From an uncultured Candidatus Saccharibacteria bacterium (GTDB taxonomy: Bacteria > Patescibacteriota > Minisyncoccia > Minisyncoccales > PWPS01): DNA of 56,576 nt. The position numbers and the translations under genes were made by a program. The stretch lies in NCBI GenBank assembly GCA_964460255.1, contig CAYWPY010000001.1:1-56576 (forward strand), written 5' to 3'. The notes below the pieces were generated by a model. The model saw only the letters and a program-made list of their open reading frames with translations, was not told where the DNA came from and made no database searches. This document shows, piece after piece, positions 4,080 to 47,842 of this stretch (the first letter of the stretch is position 1; every line of letters starts with the position of its first letter).

Positions 4080-4817
4080 ATGGATATAACAAAAAGACAG
4101 CAACGGGTTTTAGAAATAGTTGTTGAGGAGTATATAAACCTCGGAGAGCCGATTAGCTCTCATCATATCGAAGAAAAGTACGACTTAGGGGTTTCTCCGG
4201 CAACAATAAGAAACGATCTAAAAAGCCTGGTAGAGAAGGGTTATCTCAATCAACCGCACACTTCGGCAGGGAGAGTTCCTTCGGATAAAGGTTATCGCTA
4301 CTTTGTTAATAAATTACTTAAAGTTAAGCAACAATTACACCAGAATAAAAATCTGGAAAAAAGAATAAGAAGTATTGAACGCCGAATGGATGATCAATTT
4401 AAGTTTTTAAGAGAATTAACCGGTTTTTTAGCCGGACTTTCCAGCTCTCTTACTTATTCTTATCTTGAGGACGGAGATATTTTTTGGAAGGAAGGATTTG
4501 AAGAAACTCTGCATCTTCCCGAGTTTGAAGACGTAAAAAAGATATATTCTTTTTTAAGTCTTGTAAAAGAGTTCGAAAGTAAGTTTGAAAAAGAATTCGT
4601 CAACGAAGTAAATAATAATCAAGTTAGAATTTATATTGGAGAAGAAAGCCCGTTAAAAAATAAGGATTTTTCGATTATTGTTTCTTGCTATCCGTTATCG
4701 AAAAATAAAAAAGGATTTTTAGCAATTTTAGGACCGAAAAGAATGCATTACGATAAAAATATTAATTTAATAAATTCATTAGTAAAGTTATTGGATAACG
4801 GTTATGAACAAGAATAA
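4080..4817 (+). CDS. hrcA: heat-inducible transcription repressor HrcA (short form)
   Basis: The N-terminal winged-helix region matches HrcA (SPATIRNDLKSLVEKGYLNQPHTSAGRVPSDKGYRYFV). It is the first gene of an hrcA-grpE-dnaK-dnaJ series. At 245 aa it is about 100 aa shorter than typical HrcA. Confidence 0.85.
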   Translation: MDITKRQQRVLEIVVEEYINLGEPISSHHIEEKYDLGVSPATIRNDLKSLVEKGYLNQPHTSAGRVPSDKGYRYFVNKLLKVKQQLHQNKNLEKRIRSIERRMDDQFKFLRELTGFLAGLSSSLTYSYLEDGDIFWKEGFEETLHLPEFEDVKKIYSFLSLVKEFESKFEKEFVNEVNNNQVRIYIGEESPLKNKDFSIIVSCYPLSKNKKGFLAILGPKRMHYDKNINLINSLVKLLDNGYEQE

Positions 4818-5283
4818 TAGAGAAAAAAAAGAATTAGAAGAGAATATTGAAAAAATAAAAAAAGAAAGGGATGAATATTTAAACGGTTGGAAAAGAGCTC
4901 GTGCGGATTTTGTCAATTATAAAAAAAAGCAAGAGTCAAAAATTATTGAGGCTAAAAAAAGAGAAAGAAGAAAAATGATCCTTGACTTTTTAGAGATTTT
5001 GGATAATTTTTATCTGGCGGAAAAGAATATTCCCGAAGATGAACAAAATGATTATTTGCTTGGTCTTTTAAACATCAAAAAGCAAATTATCAATATATTA
5101 AAAAATTACGGAGTAGAAGAAATAAAAACCGTAGGGGAAGAATTTGACCCCAATTTACACGAGGCGGTTGCCATGGTGGATGTAGAAGAGGAAGAAAATA
5201 ATAAAATAGTTGAAGAAATTAATAAAGGCTATCTCTTAAACGGAGAACTTTTGCGTCCCGCAAAAGTAAAAGTAGCTAAATAA
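4804..5283 (+). CDS. grpE: nucleotide exchange factor GrpE
   Basis: 159 aa with a 14-nt overlap with hrcA. GrpE-like RARADFVNYKKK and C-terminal FDPNLHEAV...GYLLNGELLRPAKVKV. Confidence 0.9.
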   Translation: MNKNNREKKELEENIEKIKKERDEYLNGWKRARADFVNYKKKQESKIIEAKKRERRKMILDFLEILDNFYLAEKNIPEDEQNDYLLGLLNIKKQIINILKNYGVEEIKTVGEEFDPNLHEAVAMVDVEEEENNKIVEEINKGYLLNGELLRPAKVKVAK

Positions 5284-5340
5284 AAATTTAACCGACGAAT
5301 AGTAAAAACTGGTTTCAGTTGATAGCTATTGGTCAAAAAA

Positions 5341-7233
5341 ATGAGTAAAATTTTAGGAATAGATTTAGGAACTACTTTTTCAGCAATGGCTGTTGTTGAA
5401 GGAGGAGATCCAAAAGTATTGGAAAATAAAGAAGGAGAGAGAACCACCCCTTCCGTAATTGCAATGAGTAAAAAAGGAGAGCGACTGGTTGGTTCGATTG
5501 CCAGAAGACAACAGGTTACCAACCCGGAAAACACTATTTTTGCCGCTAAAAGATTAATTGGCCGACATTACAATAGTGATGAAGTTCAAAAAAGTAAAAA
5601 GAATCTACCTTACGAAATTCGAAATGAAAAAGATGGGGAAGGAGTAGAAATTAAGTTTAACGAAAAATGGAGAAAGGTTCCCGAAATATCAGCAATGGTT
5701 CTTCAAAAATTGAAAAAAGACGCAGAAGAAAAAGTAGGGGAGGAGATTAAAAAGGCGATAATTACCGTCCCCGCATATTTTAATGATTCGCAAAGAAAAG
5801 CAACCAAAGTAGCCGGGGAAATTGCCGGATTTGAAGTTGAAAGAGTAATTAACGAACCTACTGCCGCCGCCTTAGCTTACGGATTAAATAAAAAACAAGA
5901 CAAGAAAATATTGGTTTATGACTTTGGAGGTGGTACTTTTGATGTATCCGTTTTAGAAGTGGGTGATGATACTATTGAAGTAAAAGCCAGTGGAGGTGAT
6001 AGTTATTTGGGAGGTGAAGATTTTGATAATGAAATATTCGATTGGATGGTAGAAAAGTTTAAAAATGAAAACGGAATAGATCTCTCAAAAGATAAATTAG
6101 CACTACAAAGATTAAAAGAAGCAGCTGAAAAAGCAAAAATAGAATTATCATCAACTAAAAAAGCAGAAATAAATATACCTTTCGTAACTTCTGACGAGGA
6201 AGGTCCTAAACATTTAAACTACAGTCTTTCCAGATCAAAATTTGAAGATTTAGTTGCTAAATATGTTGATAAATCAATAGAGATGACTAAAAAGACAATG
6301 AAAGAATCGGGAATAAGTAATGATAAGATTGATGAAATTATTTTGGTCGGTGGTCAAACTAGAACTCCTTTAATCCAAGAAAAGATTAAAGAAGTTTTTA
6401 ATAAAGAACCGAATAAAGAAATTAACCCGGATGAAGTAGTTGCAATCGGTGCCGCCGTTCAAGGAGGAATTATGAGCGGAGACGTGAAAGATGTTTTGCT
6501 TTTGGACGTTACCCCTCTTTCACTGGGAATAGAAACCTTAGGTGGTAGATTTACAAAATTAATTGATAAAAATACCACTATCCCCACTTCGGAAACAGAA
6601 ACTTTCTCTACGGCGGCAAACAATCAAACATCAGTTCAAATTAATGTGCTTCAAGGAGAGCGACCGATGGCAAAAGACAATAAATCTTTAGGTCAATTTA
6701 TTTTAGACGGAATTCCACCGGCACCGCGAGGAGTTCCTCAAATTGAGGTTCAATTCGATATCGATGCCAATGGAATACTGAACGTTTCCGCAAAAGACAA
6801 GGGGACCGGAAAAGAACAATCAATTAAGATTCAGGGTTCTTGCGGTATCTCCGATGAAGAAGTAGAGAGGATGAAGAAAGAAGCTGAAGAACACGCTGAA
6901 GAAGACCAAAAGAAAGAAAAACTGCTTGACGCTAAAACTGCTGCCGAATCATTAATTTACAGCTTTGAAAAAACTAAAAAAGATCTTGGAGATGATTTTC
7001 CTGAAGAAAAACTACAAGAAATAGAAAAAGAAATTAATGAACTTAAAGAAATAAAAGAAACGGATGATACGGAGAAAGCGGAAGAGATTGAGAAAAAAAC
7101 AGAAGAAGTATCCGAAAGACTACAAAAAATTGGAGCTGAAATGTATAAAAAGCAAGCTGAAAAAGAAAATAAAAAAGAAACAGAAACTACAGAGGAGGAA
7201 GAGGTTGAAGAAGGGGAGGTTGAGGAAGAATAA
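5341..7233 (+). CDS. dnaK: molecular chaperone DnaK (Hsp70)
   Basis: [30 protein letters not shown], and a substrate-binding domain with an acidic C-terminal tail. The ORF track starts at TTG 5329; ATG 5341 gives the canonical [13 protein letters not shown]-terminus. Confidence 0.97.
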
Positions 7234-7240
7234 ATTTTAA

Positions 7241-7268
7241 ACCCGAAAGCCCCTTCTTTCGGGTTTTT
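7241..7268 (+). terminator. rho-independent terminator after dnaK
   Basis: CCCGAAAG-CCCCTT-CTTTCGGG stem-loop followed by TTTTT. Confidence 0.7.
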
Positions 7269-7289
7269 ACTAGTTATAATCAGTAATTT

Positions 7290-8378
7290 ATGAGTGAAGA
7301 TTATTACGACATACTGGGAGTATCAAAAGATGCCAGTCAGGAGGAGATTAAAAAAGCTTATCGAAAATTAGCTCACAAACATCATCCCGATAAAGGTGGT
7401 GATGAAGAAGAGTTTAAGAAGGTTAATAAAGCTTATCAAACTCTTTCCGATAAAGAAAAAAGAAAGCAATACGACCGTTTTGGAAAAGCAAACGGAGGCT
7501 TTGGCGGTGGGTTCAATGGTTATCAGTCATCCGGATTTAATGGTGATTTTAACGCTCAAGATTTGGGAGATATTTTTGGTGAATTTTTTGGGGGAGGTTT
7601 TGGTGGATTTTCAAGAAATACTAATCAGAAAAGAGAAAGAAAAGGAGAAAGCATCAAGATAAATATATCAATTAGTCTTCAAGAAGCTTTTACCGGAACC
7701 GTAAAAAAGAAATCAATTAAAAAACGAAATAGATGTGATCGTTGTGATGGCTCGGGAGCAGAACCGGGAGCCGGTAAGAAAACTTGTCCCGATTGTGACG
7801 GAACCGGATTTACGCAAACTCGTAGAAAAACATTTTTAGGAACAATTTCTCAAAAATCAACATGTAATACCTGTAATGGTTCGGGTGAAATTCCCAAAAA
7901 AGAATGTAATAAATGTAATGGTAACGGTTGGGTAGAAAGTATTAAGGAATTAAAAATAAAAATTCCGGCAGGAATAAAGTCAAATCAGACAATCAGATTA
8001 TCGGGTAAAGGGCAAGCAATTAAGGGAGGAACACCCGGAGATTTACTGGTAGAAGTAAGGGTTAAAAATAATAGTCAGTTTACTAGAAAAGGAGATGATC
8101 TTCATCTTGAAAAAGAGATAACTTACAGTCAGGCGGTGCTTGGTGACTCAGTCGAAATACCCGTTTTTAACGAAAAGGGGGAATTAAAGAAAGTTAAACT
8201 AAAAATTCCAAAAGGCTCCAAATCCGGTAAAGTCATAAAATTATCAAACAAGGGAATGCCGACACTTTCCGGATATAAACGTGGTGATTTATACATTAAG
8301 TTAATCATCAAAGTTCCCCAAAAAATAAGCAGAAAACAGAAAAATTTAATTAATAATTTAAAAAAAGAAGGGCTTTAA
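7290..8378 (+). CDS. dnaJ: co-chaperone DnaJ
   Basis: J-domain HPD ([12 protein letters not shown]), a G/F-rich linker, and four CxxCxGxG repeats ([32 protein letters not shown]). Confidence 0.95.
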
Positions 8379-8379
8379 T

Positions 8380-8408
8380 TTGACAAAAAAATAAATTAGT
8401 TATATAAT
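8380..8408 (+). promoter_or_regulatory. perfect-consensus sigma-70 promoter motif immediately after dnaJ
   Basis: TTGACA (8380-8385), 17-nt spacer, TATAAT (8403-8408). Only about 28 nt separate it from the terminator hairpin at 8436. Confidence 0.35.
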
Positions 8409-8435
8409 AGGGACACTCAATTTAAAGACCTTTTT

Positions 8436-8465
8436 ATCGGGGAGTTTTTTACTCTCCGATTTTTT
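8436..8465 (+). terminator. rho-independent terminator (dnaJ operon end and/or short transcript end)
   Basis: ATCGGGGAGT-TTTTT-ACTCTCCGAT, a 10-bp stem with one G-T pair, followed by TTTTT. Confidence 0.7.
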
Positions 8466-8468
8466 ATT

Positions 8469-8497
8469 TTGACTTTTTTTACAAAAGAGTATATAGT
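8469..8497 (+). promoter_or_regulatory. promoter candidate for tRNA-Lys
   Basis: TTGACT (8469-8474), 17-nt spacer, TATAGT (8492-8497), about 20 nt upstream of the tRNA 5' end. Confidence 0.5.
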
Positions 8498-8517
8498 AGA
8501 CAATGAAAGTAATAAAT

Positions 8518-8590
8518 GCGTCCGTAGCTCAGTTGGTAGAGCAGCTCCCTTTTAAGGAGAAGGTCGAGGGTTCAAATCCTTCCGGACGCA
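8518..8590 (+). tRNA. tRNA-Lys (anticodon UUU)
   Basis: 73-nt cloverleaf folded by hand: acceptor GCGTCCG/CGGACGC, D-arm GCTC-AGTTGGTA-GAGC, anticodon arm GCTCC-CTTTTAA-GGAGA (loop C-U-UUU-A-A), T-arm GAGGG-TTCAAAT-CCTTC, discriminator A. No encoded CCA. Confidence 0.9.
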
Positions 8591-8632
8591 CATACAAAAC
8601 CCTCCTTGAATAAAGGGGGGTTAATTTTAACC

Positions 8633-40482: not shown

Positions 40483-41535
40483 TTAATTAACAAGATGAAC
40501 GGTTCTAGTGGGATAAGCCATATCGATATTTTCTTCATTAAAACGCTTTTTAATCTTCAATAAAATTTCTTGATGAACATTTCTATAATCTAGATATTCA
40601 GAAGAAAGAACGTAATAGGAAACTTCAAAATTTAAAGCAGAATCACCAAAACCGATAAAATGAGCCCGGTCAAATTCAGCCAATTCAATATTATTAATAA
40701 TTTCTTGAATTATTTTGGGAATTCTTTCCATCTTTTGATCATCGGTCTTATAAACAACTCCAAACTCAAACAAAGCTCTTCTTTTTTCCATTTTTTTATA
40801 ATTATGGATTCTAGCCGTAGTTAGTTCTTTATTTGCCATTACTATTTCCTCCCCTTGCAGAGCTCGTAAACGGGTTGTTTTAATTCCGATCTTTTCTACT
40901 ATTCCCGACTTTTCACCAACTACTATATAATCTCCGATGACAAAAGGTTTGTCAAAATAAATTGCAAATGAACTGAATAAGTCTTCAAGTATATTTTGAA
41001 AAGCAAAAGCAACAGCTATCCCCCCGACTCCCAAGCCGGCAATAAGAGAAGTTACCTCCACTCCAAAATTAGATAAAATGAGTAGAAATAAAAACACCCA
41101 AAAAAGAGCTTTGAAAACAGTTCCGATATTTTTAATCGGCGCCTTTGCTCCCGGCTCAGCTTCAACCAATAATTTCTTATCCAAATAGTAGTCAATTAAC
41201 ATCTGTACACCGATACCGACTCTAACAGCTATCCAGACAATTAAAAAACGAGTAAGCCAAAGCTTTATATCTGTAGAAATCGTTAATAAAGATAAAGAAA
41301 GATAAAACGATAAATATAAGTAAAAATAAGTTTTTATTGAAACTATAAATTTAATTACAACTGCTTTTAAACCCTCCCCTTTTTGTTCTTTTTCTAATTT
41401 GCTTAAAATTAGAGATTCAACAATTTTAATAACTAAAAATAAAATTAAAAGCACCCCAAAAAAGTAAAGGTAACTTAAGATCGTATTTCCAAGAAAAGTC
41501 TTATTTAAAATTGTTAAATTATTTAAGTATTCCAT
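40483..41535 (-). CDS. mechanosensitive ion channel (MscS family)
   Basis: N-terminal TM helices followed by the MscS beta-domain pattern FDKPFVIGDYIVVGEKSGIVEKIGIKTTRLRALQGEEIVMANKEL. Confidence 0.88.
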   Translation of the reverse strand: MEYLNNLTILNKTFLGNTILSYLYFFGVLLILFLVIKIVESLILSKLEKEQKGEGLKAVVIKFIVSIKTYFYLYLSFYLSLSLLTISTDIKLWLTRFLIVWIAVRVGIGVQMLIDYYLDKKLLVEAEPGAKAPIKNIGTVFKALFWVFLFLLILSNFGVEVTSLIAGLGVGGIAVAFAFQNILEDLFSSFAIYFDKPFVIGDYIVVGEKSGIVEKIGIKTTRLRALQGEEIVMANKELTTARIHNYKKMEKRRALFEFGVVYKTDDQKMERIPKIIQEIINNIELAEFDRAHFIGFGDSALNFEVSYYVLSSEYLDYRNVHQEILLKIKKRFNEENIDMAYPTRTVHLVN

Positions 41536-41595
41536 ATATTTACTTGCTTACTTTTCAAGTATAATATTTTGCTTATTTATTATCAACCCGTTTTA

Positions 41596-41623
41596 TTGAC
41601 ATTTATTAATTTTATTATATAAT
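41596..41623 (+). promoter_or_regulatory. promoter candidate
   Basis: TTGACA (41596-41601), 16-nt spacer, TATAAT (41618-41623). AAGGAGG lies upstream of ATG 41646. Confidence 0.55.
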
Positions 41624-41645
41624 AAAGAAACAAGGAGGGATAAAT

Positions 41646-42095
41646 ATGAAAAAGACAGTTCTTTTTATTTTAATTGTAGTAATTTTATTTTCCCCACTAA
41701 TAAAGGCAGAGGAAAAGATAGTTCCATTATACGTTCTAAATTACGAAATAGCGGAAAATTTAAATTCTCAGGAGATGATCTACCCGGTTTATAGATCTAT
41801 TGATTTTAAATCACCCGTCCGGAATATTATTAACAAATTATTGAATATTAAATTTACCGAAAAGGAAAAGGAAATGGGTTTTTGCAGTGAATTTGAAAAA
41901 GATCACCGAATAACGGTTAAAGGAATTAATCTGAAAGACGGAATTCTAACCGTAGAATTTAATGACCCGGAACAGTTCACTACCGGAGGATCTCAGCGGG
42001 TTCTCATCTTAAAAGAACAAATTAAAAAAACATTGCTACAATTTAATTCCATAAAAAAAATAAATATTCTACCTGAATATTTATTTCAACCCTAA
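41646..42095 (+). CDS. secreted GerMN-domain-like protein
   Basis: Signal peptide MKKTVLFILIVVILFSPLIKA. The remainder fits the GerMN pattern (…PVYRSI…NKLL…GINLKDGILTVEFN…GGSQRVLILKEQIKKTLLQF…). Confidence 0.55.
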   Translation: MKKTVLFILIVVILFSPLIKAEEKIVPLYVLNYEIAENLNSQEMIYPVYRSIDFKSPVRNIINKLLNIKFTEKEKEMGFCSEFEKDHRITVKGINLKDGILTVEFNDPEQFTTGGSQRVLILKEQIKKTLLQFNSIKKINILPEYLFQP

Positions 42096-42099
42096 GTAA

Positions 42100-42125
42100 A
42101 AAACCCCGTTAAAAAACGGGGTTTT
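42100..42125 (+). terminator. rho-independent terminator (also the left end of the repeat unit)
   Basis: AAAACCCCGTT-AAAA-AACGGGGTTTT followed by A-TTT. Confidence 0.75.
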
Positions 42126-42127
42126 AT

Positions 42128-42156
42128 TTGACATAACTATATGTAAATTGTATGGT
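42128..42156 (+). promoter_or_regulatory. promoter of cassette copy 1
   Basis: TTGACA (42128-42133), 17-nt spacer, TATGGT (42151-42156). AAGGAGG at 42163-42169. Confidence 0.6.
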
Positions 42157-42176
42157 TTATGTAAGGAGGGATTAAA

Positions 42177-42830
42177 ATGAAAAAGATTGTTGTTCTTTTC
42201 ATATCACTACTATTAATTTTTTCTTTTACTTTTTCCGGCTTTGCAAATGAGGATCCAGCTGTGCAGGTGGGAGATGAAAGCTTAAGCGAGGAAGTCTTAG
42301 CTGCAAGGATTGAACAAGGCACTAATGGCGACCCAAAATTTCAGCTTGAAGAACATGAAGTTGTTATTCTTTTTATTAAATACGCACTGGTAAAAAATAC
42401 AATTGAAGTAATGGATACTGACTCCAACATGGATACAATTCATAAGAAGGCAGAGGAAAAAATAAATACACTATTAGAAAGAAATAATATAAATGTAGAA
42501 GAGCTGGAGGAGATAGGATCCTTGACTTATCAACAAGAGAAAGAAAATTATTCAATGTCCATAGGTTTAGATGTTTTAAATCAACACTACCACAAAGAAG
42601 CTAAAGAATTCGTTAGTAACCAGATGGTGGATGAAGCATTAAATAAATTAAAACTTGAAGTAGAACCAGAAAATATAGAGGAAATTAAGAGAAGAATTCA
42701 AACAACTCTAGTCGAAGCCAAAAAAACTGAACTTGTTTACGATAGACTGTTTGAAGAATATCAAAAAGGACTCTCTATCAATACTGATCAAGTTGACAGA
42801 GAAAAAGTAATTCAAAACTTGAAGTTTTAA
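42177..42830 (+). CDS. secreted protein, cassette copy 1 (possible SurA/PrsA N-terminal chaperone-like fold)
   Basis: 217 aa with signal peptide MKKIVVLFISLLLIFSFTFSGFA. The mature N-terminus NEDPAVQVGDESLSEEVLAARIEQ resembles the start of SurA-N-type chaperone domains. The function is inference only. Confidence 0.85.
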   Translation: MKKIVVLFISLLLIFSFTFSGFANEDPAVQVGDESLSEEVLAARIEQGTNGDPKFQLEEHEVVILFIKYALVKNTIEVMDTDSNMDTIHKKAEEKINTLLERNNINVEELEEIGSLTYQQEKENYSMSIGLDVLNQHYHKEAKEFVSNQMVDEALNKLKLEVEPENIEEIKRRIQTTLVEAKKTELVYDRLFEEYQKGLSINTDQVDREKVIQNLKF

Positions 42831-42835
42831 TAAAA

Positions 42836-42864
42836 ACCCTACTTAAAAAGTAGGGTCTTTTTTT
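42836..42864 (+). terminator. rho-independent terminator of copy 1
   Basis: ACCCTACTT-AAA-AAGTAGGGT followed by C-TTTTTTT. Confidence 0.75.
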
Positions 42865-42954
42865 ATTTTTAGGAGTGTTTCTAGTCGTTATTCTTATTTT
42901 TTAATTTGCTTAAAGTTAGTTCTAAAAAACCCCCGTTAAAAAACGGGGTTTTAT

Positions 42955-42983
42955 TTGACATAAATATATGTAAATTGTATGGT
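42955..42983 (+). promoter_or_regulatory. promoter of cassette copy 2
   Basis: TTGACA (42955-42960), 17-nt spacer, TATGGT (42978-42983). AAGGAGG at 42990-42996. Preceded by a copy of the 42100 hairpin. Confidence 0.6.
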
Positions 42984-43003
42984 TTATGTAAGGAGGGATT
43001 CAA

Positions 43004-43657
43004 ATGAAAAAACTATTTGTTCTTTTTATATCACTAATTTTAATTTTTTCTTTTACTTTTTCCGGCTTTGCAAATGAGGATCCAGCTGTGCAGGTGGGAG
43101 ATGAAAGCTTAAGCGAGGAAGTCTTAGCTGCAAGGATTGAACAAGGCACTAATGGCGACCCAAAATTTCAGCTTGAAGAACATGAAGTTGTTATTCTTTT
43201 TATTAAATACGCACTGGTAAAAAATACAATTGAAGTAATGGATACTGACTCCAACATGGATACAATTCATAAGAAGGCAGAGGAAAAAATAAATACACTA
43301 TTAGAAAGAAATAATATAAATGTAGAAGAGCTGGAGGAGATAGGATCCTTGACTTATCAACAAGAGAAAGAAAATTATTCAATGTCCATAGGTTTAGATG
43401 TTTTAAATCAACACTACCACAAAGAAGCTAAAGAATTCGTTAGTAACCAGATGGTGGATGAAGCATTAAATAAATTAAAACTTGAAGTAGAACCAGAAAA
43501 TATAGAGGAAATTAAGAGAAGAATTCAAACAACTCTAGTCGAAGCCAAAAAAACTGAACTTGTTTACGATAGACTGTTTGAAGAATATCAAAAAGGACTC
43601 TCTATCAATACTGATCAAGTTGACAGAGAAAAAGTAATTCAAAACTTGAAGTTTTAA
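43004..43657 (+). CDS. secreted protein, cassette copy 2 (mature part identical to copy 1)
   Basis: 217 aa. It differs from copy 1 only in the signal peptide (MKKLFVLFISLILIF versus MKKIVVLFISLLLIF). The nucleotide sequence is identical to copy 1 from codon 13 through the terminator, as aligned by eye. Confidence 0.85.
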   Translation: MKKLFVLFISLILIFSFTFSGFANEDPAVQVGDESLSEEVLAARIEQGTNGDPKFQLEEHEVVILFIKYALVKNTIEVMDTDSNMDTIHKKAEEKINTLLERNNINVEELEEIGSLTYQQEKENYSMSIGLDVLNQHYHKEAKEFVSNQMVDEALNKLKLEVEPENIEEIKRRIQTTLVEAKKTELVYDRLFEEYQKGLSINTDQVDREKVIQNLKF

Positions 43658-43662
43658 TAAAA

Positions 43663-43691
43663 ACCCTACTTAAAAAGTAGGGTCTTTTTTT
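43663..43691 (+). terminator. rho-independent terminator of copy 2
   Basis: Same ACCCTACTT-AAA-AAGTAGGGT stem-loop plus a T-run. Confidence 0.75.
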
Positions 43692-43781
43692 ATCTTAAGG
43701 AATGTTTCTAGTCGTTATTTTTATTTTTTAATTTGCTTAAATTAGCTCTAAAAGAAAAACCCCGATAAAAGCGAGTTTTAT

Positions 43782-43810
43782 TTGACATAAATATATGTAA
43801 ATTGTATGGT
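43782..43810 (+). promoter_or_regulatory. promoter of cassette copy 3
   Basis: TTGACA (43782-43787), 17-nt spacer, TATGGT (43805-43810). AAGGAGG at 43817-43823. The upstream hairpin copy is degenerate (CCCCGATAAAAGCGAG). Confidence 0.6.
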
Positions 43811-43830
43811 TTATGTAAGGAGGAATTCAA

Positions 43831-44487
43831 ATGAAAAAACTATTTGTTCTTTTCATATCACTAATTTTAATTTTTTCTTTTACTTTTTCCGGCTTTGCAA
43901 ATGAAGATCTAGCTGTGCAGGTGGGAGATGAAAGCTTAAGCGAGGAAGACTTAAATGTCCGGATTGATAAAAGTGCCAACACTCGTGATCCACACAAAAG
44001 ACTTGAACCACACGAAATTGTCTCCAGTTTTGTTTTATATGCGTTGGTAAAAAACACTATCGAAAGAGTAAAACCTAGAACCGATATGGATAAAATCCAC
44101 GAGGCAGCAGAAAAAAAACTGGATGAGGGATTAAAGCTAAATGATATGGGTATGGGAGAGGTGGTGCAAAACGGACCCAGAACGGAAAAACAGATAATGG
44201 AAGGGGTCACCACTTCCGTAGTTTTGGAAGTTTTAAATCAACACTACCACAAAGAAGCTAAAGAATTCGTTAATACCCAGATGGTGGATGAAATACTAAA
44301 TGAATTAAATTTTGAACTAAAACTAAAAAATAAAGAGGAAATTAATAAAAAAATTCGACAAACTCTTGTTCAAATAAAAAAAGCAGATCTTGTCCGCAGT
44401 GCAGTATTTGAAGAATATCAAAAAGGATTTACTATTTACACCAACAAAGTTGATAAAGAAAAAGTAACTCAAAATTTGAATTTTTAA
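43831..44487 (+). CDS. secreted protein, cassette copy 3 (diverged mosaic paralogue)
   Basis: 218 aa with a signal peptide and first ~39 residues almost identical to copies 1 and 2. There are conserved islands (YALVKNTIE, VLNQHYHKEAKEFV, QMVDE, FEEYQKG) between strongly diverged segments. Confidence 0.85.
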   Translation: MKKLFVLFISLILIFSFTFSGFANEDLAVQVGDESLSEEDLNVRIDKSANTRDPHKRLEPHEIVSSFVLYALVKNTIERVKPRTDMDKIHEAAEKKLDEGLKLNDMGMGEVVQNGPRTEKQIMEGVTTSVVLEVLNQHYHKEAKEFVNTQMVDEILNELNFELKLKNKEEINKKIRQTLVQIKKADLVRSAVFEEYQKGFTIYTNKVDKEKVTQNLNF

Positions 44488-44493
44488 TAAAAA

Positions 44494-44522
44494 ACCCTAC
44501 TTAAAAAGTAGGGTCTTTTTTT
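44494..44522. terminator. terminator of copy 3, probably bidirectional with the convergent SPFH gene
   Basis: ACCCTACTT-AAA-AAGTAGGGT flanked by an A-run upstream and a T-run downstream. It lies between two convergent stop codons (44487 and 44539). Confidence 0.7.
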
Positions 44523-44538
44523 ATTTTAAAGAATATTT

Positions 44539-45270
44539 CTAGTCGTTATCTTTATTTATCTTTTTAAACATATCCATAACTTCAATGGGGAAAAGAATGC
44601 TGGTATTTTCTTCTTTCGCGGCGTCGGAAAGTGTTTCCAGATAACGAAGAGTTATCGGGGAAGCCCCCAAAACTTGGCCGGCTTGCTTTAATTTTTCAGC
44701 AGCTTGGTATTCACCATCGGCCAATATAATCTTACTTCTTTTTGTTCTTTCCGCTTCCGCTTGTTGGGCAATTGATCTTTGCATTTCCCGTGGCACTTCG
44801 ACGTGCTTTACTTCTACACTGGTTACTTCAATCCCCCACGGATCGGTAGACTCGTCAATTACTTGGTGGAGTTTATCATTAATCTTCTCTCTTTCCGCCA
44901 GAATTTCATCCAATTCCGATGCTCCGGCTACTCCCCGTAAGGTTGTTTGTGAAACTTCGGAAGTTGCTTTCCTATAATTTTCAACTTCGATAATTGCTTT
45001 TTCCGGATCAGTAATTCGATAATAAACAACCGCATCTACTTTTACGGGAACATTATCCTTGGTAATTACTTCTTGCGGGGGGACATCTTGAGTTACAATT
45101 CTAAGGTCAACTTTTTCCATTTTATCTATAAACGGAATTAAAAAGAAAAGTCCGGGACCTTTAACCCCTACGAATCTACCCAGTCTAAAGATAATCGCTC
45201 TTTCGTATTCTTTGGCGATTTTAATTGCTAAAATAGCAACTCCTATTAAAAGGGAAATTATTATTTCCAT
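44539..45270 (-). CDS. SPFH/band-7 (stomatin-like) membrane protein
   Basis: N-terminal TM helix, then EYERAIIFRLGRFVGVKGPGLFFLIPFIDK and a coiled C-terminal region (AQQAEAERTKRSKI). Confidence 0.9.
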   Translation of the reverse strand: MEIIISLLIGVAILAIKIAKEYERAIIFRLGRFVGVKGPGLFFLIPFIDKMEKVDLRIVTQDVPPQEVITKDNVPVKVDAVVYYRITDPEKAIIEVENYRKATSEVSQTTLRGVAGASELDEILAEREKINDKLHQVIDESTDPWGIEVTSVEVKHVEVPREMQRSIAQQAEAERTKRSKIILADGEYQAAEKLKQAGQVLGASPITLRYLETLSDAAKEENTSILFPIEVMDMFKKINKDND

Positions 45271-45272
45271 AT

Positions 45273-45878
45273 TTATTTATTATTAATTAATAATTTTTTT
45301 ACTTTTTGAAAATCATTTAAAAGATCGTCTCTCCTACTGCGAGTATAAATAGTAGCCGCCGGGTGAAATAGTGGTATTATTTTAAAAGAAAGATTTTCTC
45401 TTTCAAAAACGTCTCCGTTTATTTTCGATATGGAAAACTTTTCACCGAAAGAATATTTTTTTAGTAAATAATTGGCTGAGAATCTACCGAGAGTAGCGAT
45501 TATTTTCGGTTCAATAATTTTTATTTGTCTTTCTAAAAAAGGACCGTAAAGTGCTATCTCATTAGCAGTCGGGTCTCTGTTTTCCGGTGGCCTATCTTTA
45601 ACTATATTGGTTACATAAGTATCAGCCCTTTCTATTTCTACTTCTTCCAACATTTCATCTAAAATTTGCCCCGCCCGACCACAAAACGGACGTCCGGTTT
45701 TTGCTTCGTTTTCTCCCGGTGCTTCCCCGATAAGAATTAAATCCGCATCGTGATTTCCTTCTCCTATAACCGGGAAATAATTATTTTCAATCCGATAGTT
45801 GTAAAGAGGAGAATTTTTTAAATTAACAACTTCTTTTTTTATTTCTAAAAGTTGTTTATCTTTTTCCGTAAGTTTCAT
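45273..45878 (-). CDS. uracil-DNA glycosylase, family 4-like
   Basis: Motif A GEAPGENEAKTGRPFCGRAGQ and C-terminal FHPAA. The protein contains only one Cys, so the Fe-S Cys quartet of many family-4 enzymes is not evident. Confidence 0.8.
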   Translation of the reverse strand: MKLTEKDKQLLEIKKEVVNLKNSPLYNYRIENNYFPVIGEGNHDADLILIGEAPGENEAKTGRPFCGRAGQILDEMLEEVEIERADTYVTNIVKDRPPENRDPTANEIALYGPFLERQIKIIEPKIIATLGRFSANYLLKKYSFGEKFSISKINGDVFERENLSFKIIPLFHPAATIYTRSRRDDLLNDFQKVKKLLINNK

Positions 45879-46917
45879 TATTAAATTTTTTATTTATTAA
45901 TATTCTCAATTCTTTTGAAGAGAGATTATCAACCATCTTTTTCTTTATTTCTCTAATTATCTTAGTTAATTTTTCTTTGGGTATATTTAATTCTTTACTA
46001 ATTCCCGTCGCCTTTTTTCCTTCTTCCACTCGCATTTCAAAAATTTTTTCTTCCCGAGGTGTAAAAACCTCTTCATCAACTAATTTTTTAACAAGGTCGT
46101 CTTCTTTTATTACAAAATACAAATCCCGATTATTTTCTGAACCCAAAAACTCAGCCTCACCGTCAAATATTCTTTTGTAATCACCACAAGCAAAACACTT
46201 CCCATTGTAATGGCATGGATAATTATTATTCTCAACATGATCTTTAATCGTCAAAGCCTTCTTCTTGATTATCTCCAAGTTATCTTCAATGGATTCTAAA
46301 CTTTTGGATGTTAATTTATCGTCGCTCTCAAGATACCAATAACTGAATTTTTCTATTTTTCCATTTAATTTTTCATTGGCTAATATATTATATATCGGTA
46401 GTTGTAAAGAACCCTTTTTTTCTTTATTTTTTCCCGTTTTAAAATCAATAATATGTAAACCACCGGAAGGAAGAACTTGAATCCAATCCAAACTACCAAC
46501 TAATTTAATATTTTCTTCGGGAATAAGATCGATGTTGGGAATTTTGTCCTCAATCTCAATAGATTTTTTTTCTAAAAAATCAGTTTTTAGCACTCTATCA
46601 ATCATTTTCTCCCCCCTTTTTTTAAATTGCTTTTCTTGCTTTTGGGAAATGAAACCTCCTTTTCGACCACTGTATTTTTTCCAATTATCCTCGAAAATAT
46701 CTTTTAAAGATAATTGAACTCGTTCTTTTATCGGTATTGGAGATAGATCTTCAAGAGTTTCATGAACTGAAAGTCCCAATGAAAAATAAGGATTAACTAT
46801 TTGTAATCTGTTCCCGGTATCCGGATTCTTATATTGATACTGATAATAGTATGACTGCGGACATCTTTCAAAGGAGTTTATCGCCGAATGAGATATCCAT
46901 AAATATTCTTGGTACAT
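45856..46917 (-). CDS. Cas4/AddB-like Fe-S PD-(D/E)XK nuclease fused to a sigma-70 region-4/LuxR-type HTH
   Basis: N-terminal FERCPQSYYY (first Cys), GLSVHETLE, GSLDWIQ, IIDFKTGK ((D/E)xK), LQLPIY (QxxxY) and a C-terminal Cys triad CHYNGKCFAC. Then FTPREEKIFEMRVEEGKKATGISKELNIPKEKLTKIIREIKKKM resembles sigma-70 region 4. 23-nt overlap with the UDG gene. Confidence 0.75.
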   Translation of the reverse strand: MYQEYLWISHSAINSFERCPQSYYYQYQYKNPDTGNRLQIVNPYFSLGLSVHETLEDLSPIPIKERVQLSLKDIFEDNWKKYSGRKGGFISQKQEKQFKKRGEKMIDRVLKTDFLEKKSIEIEDKIPNIDLIPEENIKLVGSLDWIQVLPSGGLHIIDFKTGKNKEKKGSLQLPIYNILANEKLNGKIEKFSYWYLESDDKLTSKSLESIEDNLEIIKKKALTIKDHVENNNYPCHYNGKCFACGDYKRIFDGEAEFLGSENNRDLYFVIKEDDLVKKLVDEEVFTPREEKIFEMRVEEGKKATGISKELNIPKEKLTKIIREIKKKMVDNLSSKELRILINKKFNNETYGKR

Positions 46918-46961
46918 GCCTTAAGTTTATCACTATAATTAATTTATTCCAATTCTTAATC

Positions 46962-46986
46962 AAAATGCCGAGCTTCTGCTCGGCAT
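46962..46986 (-). terminator. rho-independent terminator
   Basis: ATGCCGAGC-loop(4)-GCTCGGCAT, a perfect 9-bp stem, followed on the minus strand by TTTT. Confidence 0.7.
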
Positions 46987-47008
46987 TTCATAATTTCTCT
47001 TTTTTTTC

Positions 47009-47842
47009 TTATTCTTCTATTTCAATCTCCATATCTTCAGGATTAACTTCCTCTTGGCCTTCTTCCGCTTCTTCATTTTCTTCTTCATCAGCGTCTTCTT
47101 CTCCTTCACTTTCCTCTTCTCCTTCACTATCTTCATCAGTAACCGTACCCGCTTCTATATCTTCATCGGTAATAAATACCTCGATTTCCGCATCTTCTTT
47201 CATTTCCTCCACATCTTCCAAAATAAGCTCAGTAGCTCTTTCTTGAATTAAAGTGGGTCTTATTTCTTCCCTTATTTCTTCAAAAGGAGGAACTTCTTGT
47301 CCGGAAGATTGTGCTTGGGTTTTATAAACTTCATAATAATTTTCAACTTCTTCCTCCGTAACCTCAATATCTTCGCTGTAAAGCTCTATTAATTTATCAA
47401 TCTCCACTTGTTTTGAAAAAAGAGTATCCATTTCTTCTTTATCTTTCAATCCTTGCTCTTTTAACATACTTACCAAATCTTCTTCAGTAGATACCTCATA
47501 CATAGTCATTAATTCTTCAGTGAATTCCTGAATATCTTCTTCAGTAACCTCAACGTCTTTTTCTTTTGCTAAATCGGTTAACAGTATCTCTTGAACCGCT
47601 TGCTCGACAGCCTGATCTTTCAACTCTTCTTTAGTAACTTCCATACCGTAAGTTTCGTATTGAGAAGCAGTTTTTTCAACCAAATTATCAAAATCAGATC
47701 TACTGTATTCTTGTCCATCAACAGTTAAGGCAGTATTTCCTTGAAACAAATCCATTGGGTTTCCAATGAACAATATTCCCAGAGCTATTACTAAGGCAGC
47801 TCCGATAATCCAAAACCAACTTTCTTTTAATAAATTTTTCAT
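47009..47842 (-). CDS. membrane-anchored SurA-N-terminal-domain-like chaperone with acidic tail (no PPIase domain seen)
   Basis: N-terminal TM anchor. NTALTVDGQEYSRSDFDNLVEK... resembles PpiD/SurA N-domains. The C-terminal ~45 residues are almost purely Asp/Glu. Confidence 0.6.
   Translation of the reverse strand: MKNLLKESWFWIIGAALVIALGILFIGNPMDLFQGNTALTVDGQEYSRSDFDNLVEKTASQYETYGMEVTKEELKDQAVEQAVQEILLTDLAKEKDVEVTEEDIQEFTEELMTMYEVSTEEDLVSMLKEQGLKDKEEMDTLFSKQVEIDKLIELYSEDIEVTEEEVENYYEVYKTQAQSSGQEVPPFEEIREEIRPTLIQERATELILEDVEEMKEDAEIEVFITDEDIEAGTVTDEDSEGEEESEGEEDADEEENEEAEEGQEEVNPEDMEIEIEE

What the first reader, a model, noticed from the sequence alone, without database searches (positions are those of the whole stretch)
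42100..44522. Tandem triplication of a complete promoter-RBS-secreted protein-terminator cassette with exact 827-bp period
Three start codons (42177, 43004, 43831) are spaced exactly 827 nt apart. Each unit contains a near-consensus promoter (TTGACA-17-TATGGT), AAGGAGG, a 217/218-aa protein with the signal peptide ...SFTFSGFA, and the same terminator (ACCCTACTT-AAA-AAGTAGGGT). Copies 1 and 2 encode identical mature proteins. Copy 3 is a mosaic. Its promoter, signal peptide and first ~39 codons are nearly identical at the nucleotide level. A 43-nt island is identical (GTTTTAAATCAACACTACCACAAAGAAGCTAAAGAATTCGTTA, 42573-42615 = 44230-44272), and shorter islands (YALVKNTIE, QMVDE, FEEYQKG) are conserved. 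The segments between them are heavily diverged, yet the length is preserved to within one codon. Conserved recombinogenic islands flanking variable segments in an array of individually expressed surface or secreted paralogues is the layout seen in contingency and antigenic-variation families. For a reduced-genome, possibly host-attached organism, this is the clearest accessory or fast-evolving locus in the window.
Basis: seen in the sequence. Interest (0 to 1): 0.62.

Follow-up and report, generated by a model that had tools for sequence, protein, structure and literature searches.

The report
Tandem secreted SurA-like chaperone gene array
Three head-to-tail copies of a small exported chaperone-like gene in an uncultured, reduced-genome (Patescibacteria) bacterium are a recent gene duplication patched by gene conversion, which is ordinary gene-family evolution and not an antigenic-variation system.

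Summary
Three complete promoter-RBS-CDS-terminator cassettes have starts exactly 827 nt apart. Copies 1 and 2 are identical over 654 nt. Copy 3 is 58% identical as protein, with a near-identical 5' part and an exact 43-nt island. Unitigs from an independent public run support all three cassettes.

The protein is a Sec-exported SurA/PrsA-type chaperone core of about 22.5 kDa that lacks the parvulin domain. The genes sit in a conserved chromosomal slot (MscS | GerMN-like | family genes | Band-7/TruB) of a Nealsonbacteria-related bacterium from hypersaline mats. Relatives carry 1-3 family genes in that slot.

Copies 1/2 (type A) and copy 3 (type B) are old paralogues, each with an orthologue in the nearest relative. 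The mosaic reflects gene conversion confined to two tracts: promoter to about codon 40, and codons about 133-153. Both species show the same tracts (Fisher p = 3e-15). The second A copy is a very recent in-situ segmental duplication. A 97-98% identical strain seems to have only A+B.

There are no repeats, invertible elements, silent cassettes or dN/dS above 1. This is a real, fast-evolving locus with variable copy number, but an ordinary one. Chaperone activity is inferred, not shown.

The parts
41646..42095 (+). Upstream flanking gene: 149-aa exported GerMN (Germane, PF10646) domain protein. It is the conserved left neighbour of the family slot in all relatives.
   Evidence: Pfam E 4.3e-07; synteny in L001, L002, L085, L086, L088, L090, L091
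42098..42924 (+). Repeat unit 1 (827 nt): GerMN terminator hairpin, promoter, RBS, type-A CDS, terminator, and a spacer carrying a relic of the Band-7 3' end.
42104..42121 (.). Hairpin CCCCGTTAAAAAACGGGG (terminator of the GerMN gene) abutting the -35 box. It forms the left edge of the duplicated unit. A second intact copy lies at 42931-42948, and a decayed copy at about 43760-43775 in unit 3.
42128..42156 (+). Promoter-like site TTGACA-17-TATGGT of cassette 1. Identical sites lie at 42955-42983 and 43782-43810.
42177..42830 (+). Copy 1, type A: 217-aa pre-protein. Signal peptide is residues 1-23 (MKKIVVLFISLLLIFSFTFSGFA|NE). The mature protein is about 22.5 kDa, pI 4.6, with no Cys, and is predicted to be a SurA_N-like all-alpha chaperone core.
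42836..42856 (+). Intrinsic terminator of cassette 1 (9-bp stem plus T-run). Identical copies lie at 43663-43683 and 44494-44514.
42878..42899 (.). Relic of the 3' end of the convergent Band-7 gene (stop codon plus about 6 codons; reverse strand reads ..KNKNND*) inside spacer 1. A second relic lies at 43705-43726. The real gene end is at 44536-44557.
   Evidence: (D3)
42925..43751 (+). Repeat unit 2 (827 nt). Its type-A CDS (43004-43657) has a body identical to copy 1 over 654 nt. Its 5' region is a patchwork of unit-1-like and unit-3-like variants.
43752..44557 (+). Repeat unit 3. Its type-B CDS (43831-44487, 218 aa) is orthologous to P0004 of the nearest relative. The unit ends in the true 3' end of the Band-7 gene.
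42125..42293 (+). Gene-conversion tract 1 (promoter, RBS, signal peptide, codons 1 to about 39). The copy-3 counterpart is 43779-43947. Together with tract 2 (below), these two stretches hold 38 'concerted' against 1 'orthology' informative sites.
42571..42630 (+). Gene-conversion tract 2 (codons about 133-153, VLNQHYHKEAKEFV..QMVDE). The copy-3 counterpart is 44228-44287. It contains the exact 43-nt island. 12 concerted : 0 orthology sites.
44539..45270 (-). Downstream flanking gene: SPFH/Band-7 protein, convergent with the array and 95% identical in the nearest relative. Its 3' tail was copied into the spacers.
47009..47842 (-). Distant paralogue 2.5 kb away: a membrane-anchored, parvulin-less SurA_N_2/SurA_N_3/Trigger_C protein with an acidic tail. 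It is conserved in all syntenic relatives.
   Evidence: Pfam E 9e-12; hhalign to family profile A3 prob 84.7%, E 6.6e-06

Best explanation
The locus is a three-gene tandem array of monocistronic cassettes. Each cassette encodes a Sec-exported, acidic, all-alpha protein of about 22.5 kDa. The protein is a stand-alone N+C core of the SurA/PrsA/PpiD chaperone superfamily and has no parvulin (PPIase) domain. The array occupies a conserved chromosomal slot in a Nealsonbacteria-related Patescibacteria genome from hypersaline microbial mats.

History, shown by comparison:
1. An ancestral single gene between the GerMN-like gene and the Band-7 gene was duplicated in situ. The duplicated segment ran from the GerMN terminator hairpin to a few codons inside the convergent Band-7 gene, so each spacer carries relics of both. 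This gave paralogue types A and B before the split from the nearest sampled relative.
2. A and B diverged to about 42% amino-acid difference under relaxed purifying selection.
3. Recurrent gene conversion keeps two tracts (promoter to about codon 40, and codons about 133-153) identical within each genome although they differ between genomes.
4. In this strain the A cassette was duplicated again very recently, leaving a 654-nt identical run. The likely route is unequal homologous recombination between the shared 5' or 3' cassette ends.

Function, inferred: an extracytoplasmic holdase or foldase for exported proteins. A and B would have diverged client-binding surfaces, and the extra A copy would raise dosage.
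For: **Anatomy:**

**Copy number:** run X1 holds unitigs for both spacers and for three distinct 5' variants at about flank depth. The A body has depth 6.6, close to the sum of spacer depths (2.2 + 3.8).

**Duplication relics:** the Band-7 stop codon plus about 6 codons, and the GerMN hairpin, occur in both spacers.

**A/B orthology and conversion**
- Four-sequence site patterns give 52 concerted, 51 orthology and 14 other sites.
- Concerted sites are confined to the two tracts (38:1 against 14:50 elsewhere, Fisher p = 3e-15).
- The NJ tree gives ((W_A,R_A),(W_B,R_B)).
- Synonymous divergence in the island is pS = 0 within the window but 0.31-0.39 between genomes.
- The relative's A cassette is an 838-nt graph cycle that shares its 5' node with the B contig.

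**Slot and copy-number variation:** relatives carry 1, 2, 2, 2, 3 and at least 2 family genes in the same slot. The k-mer graph of strain X2 has a single shared 5' node branching to A and B, one spacer type, and A depth no higher than B depth. That indicates two cassettes.

**Fold and family**
- hhalign of the window+relative profile against the 213-aa subfamily gives prob 96.5%, E 7e-10, 196 columns.
- That subfamily passes the Pfam gathering score for SurA_N_3 (29.5-34 bits against a 27.2 cut-off).
- AF2 models have pLDDT 88 and pTM 0.79.
- The best meaningful Foldseek PDB hits are the SurA core (8pzv_F, 9hg9_F; TM 0.42-0.51), PrsA 6vj2, PEB4/Cj1289, MPN555 and LIC12922.

**Selection:** dN/dS between orthologues is 0.40-0.41.
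Against: - The window proteins themselves have no significant Pfam or NCBIfam hit. The SurA_N link is transitive.
- Foldseek E-values are weak (0.3-2.5), so the fold assignment rests on consistent top hits rather than on a significant single match.
- The window+relative profile alone does not match the neighbouring SurA_N protein.
- No expression or export data exist, and no RNA run was found.
- Depths in X1 are only 2-7x. The X2 two-cassette inference uses k=31 unitig depths that scatter by about 30%.
- The relative's A/B 5' identity is partly inferred from assembly-graph topology.
- dN/dS between the relative's A and B is about 0.9, so some relaxation or positive selection cannot be excluded.
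Confidence: 0.72

Rival explanations
1. Contingency or antigenic-variation locus. Conserved islands act as recombination anchors that shuffle variable segments among individually expressed surface paralogues, producing population-level diversity at a host interface.
For: - Conserved 5' ends (promoter plus signal peptide) with divergent mature parts resemble mycoplasma vsp/vlp-type families (my own knowledge).
- The gene evolves faster than all its neighbours.
- Copy number varies.
- The lineage is probably episymbiotic (titles only).
Against: - No simple-sequence repeats or homopolymer excess.
- No invertible-element repeats.
- No silent cassettes and no recombinase nearby.
- The variable segments are stable A and B orthologues across species: 50 orthology against 14 concerted sites outside the tracts.
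- dN/dS is below 1.
- The strain in X2 shows only scattered SNPs, not reshuffled segments.
- The fold is that of a chaperone family.
Confidence: 0.06
2. The tandem copies, or at least the third cassette, are an assembly artefact: a mis-resolved repeat or a mix of strain variants.
For: - The 654-nt exact repeat is longer than short reads.
- The relative's assembly visibly mis-resolved the same locus, giving a linear contig with one cassette plus a separate 838-nt cycle.
- Spacer-1 depth (2.2) and 5'-variant-2 depth (3.1) in X1 are the lowest of the junction unitigs.
Against: - Three distinct 5' variants and two distinct spacers all exist as exact unitigs in X1.
- The only path through the graph that uses all of them is Ger-S1-A-sp1-S2-A-sp2-S3-B.
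- A-body depth is about 1.6x that of the flanks.
Confidence: 0.06
3. The proteins keep the SurA_N-like fold but are not general chaperones. They would be secreted host-interaction or cell-surface factors of an episymbiont, for example binding host envelope proteins or scaffolding a surface structure together with the co-located GerMN protein. In that case rapid divergence and copy-number change would be adaptive.
For: - They have a cleavable signal peptide with no lipobox or anchor (sequence).
- A separate, better conserved, membrane-anchored SurA_N protein 2.5 kb away could cover the housekeeping role.
- The family is tiny and lineage-restricted: 4 hits among 1.84e9 representative proteins.
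- It is the fastest-evolving gene in the neighbourhood.
- It is strictly linked to the GerMN-like gene.
Against: There is no direct evidence for any host interaction. dN/dS is below 1. The N-terminal beta-hairpin and the core helices typical of the chaperone module are conserved.
Confidence: 0.16

Closest known systems
SurA N+C core (E. coli SurA without its parvulin domains)
   Same: It is exported by a Sec signal peptide. It has an all-alpha N-domain whose N-terminal beta-hairpin pairs with a C-terminal strand. The best structural matches are 8pzv_F and 9hg9_F, with TM 0.42-0.51 over about 200 columns. From my own knowledge (Behrens et al. 2001), the parvulin-less SurA core retains chaperone function.
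   Different: There are no parvulin domains at all. Sequence identity is only 11-13%. Foldseek E-values are not significant. The host is a Patescibacteria cell, presumed to lack an outer membrane and BAM, so the clients must differ. The genes occur as a tandem multi-copy array.
PrsA foldase of Gram-positive bacteria (e.g. Lactococcus lactis 6vj2)
   Same: It would be an extracytoplasmic chaperone of a cell without an outer membrane. The NC domain fold appears among the top Foldseek hits.
   Different: PrsA is a lipoprotein with a central parvulin domain. The window proteins have no Cys or lipobox and no parvulin domain.
Pfam SurA_N_3 (PF13624) / SurA_N_2 (PF13623) stand-alone proteins, including PpiD-like anchored forms and the neighbour gene 47009-47842
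   Same: Family relatives P0008, P0009 and P0012 pass the SurA_N_3 gathering score. They are full-length homologues of the window proteins (hhalign prob 96.5%).
   Different: The window proteins do not reach the Pfam thresholds themselves. They are soluble and cleaved rather than membrane-anchored. They form a rapidly diverging, lineage-specific subfamily.
Concerted evolution of duplicated bacterial genes by gene conversion (e.g. tufA/tufB; reviewed by Santoyo and Romero 2005; my own knowledge)
   Same: Paralogues are identical within a genome but different between genomes in defined tracts. Tree topology changes along the gene.
   Different: Conversion here is restricted to two short tracts, and the same two tracts are seen in two species. 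The rest of the gene keeps A/B identity.
Mycoplasma vsp/vlp-type variable lipoprotein arrays and other contingency loci
   Same: They are tandem paralogues with a highly conserved promoter and signal-peptide region and divergent mature parts.
   Different: There is no phase-variable homopolymer in the promoter, no internal repeat domains, no lipobox, no site-specific recombinase and no silent copies. dN/dS is below 1.

Membership tests
SurA_N-like chaperone domain superfamily (PF13624/PF13623/PF09312; SurA, PrsA, PpiD N-domains) | Significant profile match of the protein itself to a SurA_N model | tested here: not met
   No Pfam or NCBIfam hit below E = 0.04 for copies 1 and 3.
SurA_N-like chaperone domain superfamily (PF13624/PF13623/PF09312; SurA, PrsA, PpiD N-domains) | Homology to proteins that do pass the family threshold (transitive link) | tested here: met
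   hhalign of A2 (window + nearest relative only) against A6 (213-aa subfamily) gives prob 96.5%, E 7.2e-10, 196 columns. P0008, P0009 and P0012 score 29.5, 34 and 33 bits against the 27.2 cut-off for SurA_N_3. The syntenic orthologue P0005 scores 27.2 bits against 28.5 for SurA_N_2.
SurA_N-like chaperone domain superfamily (PF13624/PF13623/PF09312; SurA, PrsA, PpiD N-domains) | Fold: helical N-domain closed by an N-terminal beta-hairpin plus a C-terminal strand | tested here: inconclusive
   The AF2 models (pLDDT 88) show E29-31, E34-36, E199-201 and 9 helices. The top Foldseek PDB hits are SurA, PrsA, PEB4, MPN555 and LIC12922, but with E 0.3-2.5 and TM 0.33-0.51.
SurA / PrsA proper (PPIase chaperones) | At least one parvulin (rotamase) domain | tested here: not met
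   No rotamase hit. The mature length of 194 aa leaves no room for one. The model is all-alpha.
SurA / PrsA proper (PPIase chaperones) | Holdase or foldase activity on exported clients | not testable with these tools
   Needs biochemical or genetic assays.
Contingency / antigenic-variation locus | Hypermutable simple repeat, invertible promoter or site-specific recombinase controlling expression | tested here: not met
   TRF finds nothing in 42-44.6 kb. Homopolymers of 7 or more occur at 3.27 per kb against 3.02 for the window. Only AT-rich chance inverted repeats and the terminator hairpins are present. The neighbours are housekeeping genes.
Contingency / antigenic-variation locus | Silent donor cassettes feeding one expression site, or reshuffling of variable segments among copies | tested here: not met
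   All three cassettes have a promoter, RBS and terminator. The variable segments follow A|B orthology across species: 50 orthology against 14 concerted sites outside the tracts.
Contingency / antigenic-variation locus | Diversifying selection (dN/dS > 1) in the variable segments | tested here: not met
   Nei-Gojobori dN/dS is 0.36-0.56 for W1 against W3 segments, 0.40-0.41 between orthologues, and about 0.9 for the relative's A against B. These are pairwise, whole-segment estimates only.
Tandem segmental duplication with concerted evolution | Head-to-tail units whose junctions carry relics of both flanks | tested here: met
   The Band-7 3' relic lies at 42878-42899 and 43705-43726. The GerMN hairpin lies at 42931-42948.
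Tandem segmental duplication with concerted evolution | Segment-wise phylogenetic incongruence: identical within a genome, different between genomes | tested here: met
   38:1 against 14:50 site patterns, Fisher p = 3e-15. The 43-nt run has permutation p of about 1e-5.
Tandem segmental duplication with concerted evolution | Copy-number differences between close strains or species | tested here: met
   Syntenic relatives carry 1-3 genes. The graph and depths of strain X2 fit 2 cassettes against 3 here, at low depth and so suggestive only.

The most novel reading that the evidence does not exclude
This would be a lineage-restricted family of secreted, parvulin-less SurA-like proteins that Nealsonbacteria-related episymbionts expand and contract at one chromosomal hotspot. 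Selection-limited gene conversion would keep the export and regulatory part, and one helix (possibly a shared interaction or dimer surface), identical between paralogues. The client- or host-facing surfaces would diverge quickly. That would make it a dosage-tunable and specificity-tunable set of host-interface or envelope-assembly factors rather than a housekeeping chaperone.
Probability: 0.15. Interest if true: 0.5.

Novelty: new member of a known kind. Interest (0 to 1): 0.3.

Why it matters
The array gives a clean, datable example of tandem duplication plus tract-limited gene conversion in a reduced Patescibacteria genome. Such genomes are usually thought of as streamlined and poor in paralogues.

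It also assigns a previously unannotated gene to the SurA/PrsA chaperone-core superfamily; one relative was mis-annotated as 'RocB'. If the proteins are extracytoplasmic chaperones, they point to the envelope and secretion biology of uncultured episymbionts.

The finding does not reveal a new mechanism, and it removes an antigenic-variation candidate from the list.

Tried and rejected
- **Direct family scans of copies 1 and 3.** Pfam, NCBIfam, PHROGs and PADLOC gave nothing significant.
- **Sequence searches against PDB.** The single protein and profiles A3 and A5 gave only noise, apart from a weak SurA fusion hit at E 0.78.
- **hhalign of the window+relative profile (A2) against the neighbouring SurA_N protein.** This failed (prob 4.9%). 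Only the wider profile A3 matched.
- **Collection scans.** The search for related loci with the family profile found nothing in genome contigs or metagenome contigs.
- **Exact-protein look-up of the Band-7 neighbour**, to fetch other strains: not on record.
- **Expression data.** No RNA runs were found.
- **Mobile-element origin.** tblastn against phages and plasmids found no match. Foldseek against viral structures gave noise.
- **Literature.** A search for SurA in Patescibacteria returned nothing relevant.
- **Explanations rejected.** I considered phase variation by repeats or inversion, a mobile-element or phage origin, and an assembly artefact. All were rejected on the evidence above.


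Full report
**1. Observation**

The window is a whole 56,576-bp metagenomic contig with 32% GC. Three same-strand ORFs lie between 42.1 and 44.6 kb: 42177-42830, 43004-43657 and 43831-44487, of 217, 217 and 218 aa. Their starts are exactly 827 nt apart.

Each ORF is preceded by TTGACA-17-TATGGT (42128, 42955, 43782) and AAGGAGG (42163, 42990, 43817). Each is followed by the hairpin ACCCTACTTAAAAAGTAGGGT plus a T-run (42836, 43663, 44494).

Units 1 and 2 (42098-42924 and 42925-43751) differ at 21 of 827 positions. All differences lie in the 5' region/signal peptide or the spacer. A 654-nt run (42213-42866) is identical. Copy 3 is 58% identical as protein. It has only 8 differences in the first 117 nt of the CDS, and the exact 43-nt island 42573-42615 = 44230-44272 (permutation p of about 1e-5).

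**2. Is the triplication real?**

Two public runs hold the locus: X1 (microbial mat, 83% of sampled words) and X2 (hypersaline lake, 56%).

In X1, Logan unitigs exactly match:
- spacer 1 (121 nt, depth 2.2) and spacer 2 (141 nt, depth 3.8);
- the junction into the Band-7 flank (depth 4.0);
- all three distinct 5'/signal-peptide variants (depths 4.4, 3.1 and 4.2).

The collapsed A body has depth 6.6, while flanks are about 2.4-5. The only path using all these pieces is GerMN-S1-A-sp1-S2-A-sp2-S3-B-Band7. Depth is low, but an assembly artefact is unlikely.

In X2 a 97-98% identical strain shows a different graph. A single 191-nt 5' node, identical to this window's S1, overlaps by k-1 = 30 nt the flank and one spacer on its left, and both the A body and the B body on its right. 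There is one spacer type, and A depth (7.5-9.0) does not exceed B depth (9-11). This fits a two-cassette A+B array, which would be a strain-level copy-number difference. The evidence is suggestive, not proven.

**3. Organism and context**

The contig carries hrcA-grpE-dnaK-dnaJ and other housekeeping genes. DnaK is 83-86% identical to MAGs labelled Candidatus Nealsonbacteria (T1Sed10_127, from soda-lake sediment; PMC6146748) and to related Patescibacteria MAGs.

The array lies between a 149-aa exported GerMN-domain protein (41646-42095, PF10646) and a convergent SPFH/Band-7 gene (44539-45270). MscS and a Na+/H+ exchanger lie upstream. UDG, a PD-(D/E)XK protein, a membrane-anchored SurA_N protein (47009-47842) and PIG-L lie downstream.

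**4. Relatives**

The family is tiny. A search of 5.8e9 proteins found only two other sequences (P0002 and P0004). A profile search of 1.84e9 representative proteins added two more (P0005 and P0006). A broader profile added P0007-P0012.

All members lie in the same slot, MscS(-) | GerMN-like(+) | family genes(+) | TruB/Band-7(-):

| Locus | Family genes in the slot | Sizes (aa) |
|---|---|---|
| L085 | 1 | 225 |
| L088 | 2 | 253 + 211 |
| L090 | 2 | 253 + 214 |
| L091 | 2 | 259 + 214 |
| L086/L087 | 3 | 250 + 213 + 234 |
| Nearest relative (L001/L002 + L003/L004) | at least 2 | 217 (B) + 215 (A) |
| This window | 3 | 217 + 217 + 218 |

In the nearest relative, the linear contigs L001/L002 show GerMN-P0004-Band7. 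The same samples also hold 965-nt contigs (L003, L004) with a 127-nt terminal overlap. That makes an 838-nt cycle carrying a complete P0002 cassette with the same promoter and terminator. The cycle shares its 5' node with the linear contig. This is the graph expected for GerMN-S-A-spacer-S-B-Band7 mis-resolved by the assembler.

**5. What the mosaic is**

P0002 groups with copies 1 and 2 (type A). P0004 groups with copy 3 (type B). The NJ tree gives ((W_A,R_A),(W_B,R_B)), sister to the single-copy L085 gene.

Informative sites in the four-sequence alignment (promoter to terminator) split into three classes:
- 52 'concerted' sites (W_A = W_B, different from R_A = R_B);
- 51 'orthology' sites (W_A = R_A, different from W_B = R_B);
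- 14 sites of the third pattern.

The classes are spatially exclusive. The tracts 42140-42290 and 42571-42630 hold 38 concerted and 1 orthology site. The rest holds 14 and 50 (Fisher p = 3e-15).

Synonymous divergence tells the same story. In the island, pS is 0 within the window and 0.09 within the relative, but 0.31-0.39 between genomes. In variable segment 1, dS is 0.58-0.78 between orthologues and 1.1-1.45 between A and B of different or the same genome.

So A and B are old paralogues. The 'conserved islands' are gene-conversion tracts, and the same two tracts are homogenised in both species. Within the 5' tract, unit 2 is itself a patchwork of unit-1-like and unit-3-like variants. In strain X2 the 5' node is fully homogenised. 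Both observations indicate ongoing conversion.

**6. How the array arose**

Both internal spacers contain a relic of the Band-7 3' end: TTTCTAGTCGTTAT... at 42878 and 43705, with the genuine copy at 44536. The reverse strand of the relic reads ..KNKNND* against ..KINKDND* in the real gene. The GerMN terminator hairpin CCCCGTTAAAAAACGGGG is also repeated. It is at 42104 in its original position, intact at 42931, and decayed in unit 3.

The duplicated segment therefore ran from the GerMN terminator to a few codons inside Band-7. This is an in-situ segmental tandem duplication. The right-hand part of the spacer (TTTTTTAATTTGCTTAAA) is shared with the relative's A spacer, so the A/B junction is ancestral. 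The A-A duplication (654 nt identical) is recent and specific to this strain or lineage. The likely route is unequal homologous recombination between the shared cassette ends. That step is an inference.

**7. What the protein is**

The N-terminus, MKK + 17 hydrophobic residues + SGFA|NE, is a typical Sec/SPase I signal. Mean Kyte-Doolittle hydropathy of residues 4-20 is 2.66. There is no Cys, hence no lipobox, and no other hydrophobic segment. Mature A is 194 aa with pI 4.6; mature B is 195 aa with pI 5.5.

Copies 1 and 3 have no direct Pfam or NCBIfam hit. The link to a known family is indirect:
- The window+relative profile aligns over its full length with the 213-aa subfamily (hhalign prob 96.5%, E 7e-10).
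- Members of that subfamily pass the Pfam gathering score for SurA_N_3, and one also passes for SurA_N_2.
- The syntenic single-copy orthologue P0005 scores 27.2 bits on SurA_N_2.
- The wider family profile matches the neighbouring SurA_N protein (prob 84.7%, E 6.6e-6).

AF2 models (pLDDT 88, pTM 0.79) show an N-terminal beta-hairpin, a helical bundle and a C-terminal strand. Foldseek against PDB returns no significant E-value. The best meaningful hits are consistent, though: SurA core chains (8pzv_F, 9hg9_F; TM 0.42-0.51 over about 200 columns), PrsA (6vj2), PEB4/Cj1289 (3rgc), MPN555 (1zxj), LIC12922 (3nrk) and trigger factor. There is no parvulin domain.

I therefore file the protein as an exported, parvulin-less SurA/PrsA-type chaperone core. 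Its activity is inferred, not shown.

**8. Against contingency or antigenic variation**

- No tandem or simple repeats.
- Homopolymer density equal to background.
- No invertible-promoter repeats.
- No recombinase or mobile-element genes nearby.
- No phage, plasmid or defence-system similarity.
- All cassettes are complete, so none is a silent donor.
- The variable segments are stable orthologues.
- dN/dS is below 1.

The gene is the fastest-evolving in its neighbourhood: 58-60% identity to the nearest relative, against Band-7 95, UDG 87, PDDEXK 85, MscS 79, SurA_N 70, GerMN 64 and PIG-L 61. Against L085 it is 26% identical, while the neighbours are 44-75%. The slot also gains and loses copies.

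**9. Verdict**

This is a real feature, accurately described, with an ordinary mechanism: tandem duplication plus tract-limited gene conversion in a lineage-specific branch of a known chaperone-domain superfamily.

It has modest interest as a clean case of paralogue dynamics in a streamlined Patescibacteria genome, and as an annotation for an orphan family. It carries a small chance of being a host-interface factor.

Noticed in passing
window 47009-47842 (-): A membrane-anchored SurA_N_2/SurA_N_3/Trigger_C-like protein without a parvulin domain and with a very acidic C-terminal tail (…DEDSEGEEESEGEEDADEEENEEAEEGQEE…). It is conserved in every syntenic relative. It is probably the housekeeping PpiD/PrsA-like chaperone of this lineage and a distant paralogue of the array genes.
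   Followed up: partly
L003 1-965 and L004 1-965: Two 965-nt JGI contigs from different samples are rotations of one 838-nt cycle (127-nt terminal overlap) that carries a full type-A cassette. The source names the product 'arginine utilization protein RocB', which looks like a mis-annotation.
   Followed up: yes
window 42104-42121 / 42128-42133: The terminator hairpin of the GerMN-like gene ends 6 nt before the -35 box of cassette 1, and its T-tail runs into that box. Terminator and promoter are thus packed back to back and were duplicated together. The hairpin is symmetric enough to score as a terminator on both strands.
   Followed up: partly
window 41632-41692 vs 42163-42223, 42990-43050, 43817-43877: The RBS, start codon and signal-peptide DNA of the GerMN-like gene is 62-70% identical to the cassette 5' ends (AAGGAGGGAT..ATGAAAAAG..). 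This is probably generic RBS/signal-peptide composition, but it could be an older conversion or duplication trace.
   Followed up: no
run X2 laid on window 41000-46000: A 97-98% identical strain in a hypersaline-lake metagenome has a fully homogenised 5' node shared by the A and B cassettes. Its depths fit two cassettes rather than three, which would be within-species copy-number polymorphism.
   Followed up: partly
L086 853-3116; L088 4397-5861; L090 7176-8645; L091 1254-2742: More distant relatives carry older, strongly diverged subfamilies (about 250 aa, about 213 aa, and 234 aa) of the same family in the same slot. The slot has therefore been a duplication hotspot repeatedly.
   Followed up: partly
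window 4080-8591: There is an hrcA-grpE-dnaK-dnaJ heat-shock operon followed by tRNA-Lys(UUU) at 8518-8591. DnaK was used for taxonomic placement (83-86% to Nealsonbacteria-labelled MAGs).
   Followed up: yes
window 46851-47246 (+) and 43827-44213 (-): These are long antisense ORFs (131 aa and 128 aa) overlapping real genes. They are low-complexity translations and almost certainly spurious.
   Followed up: no
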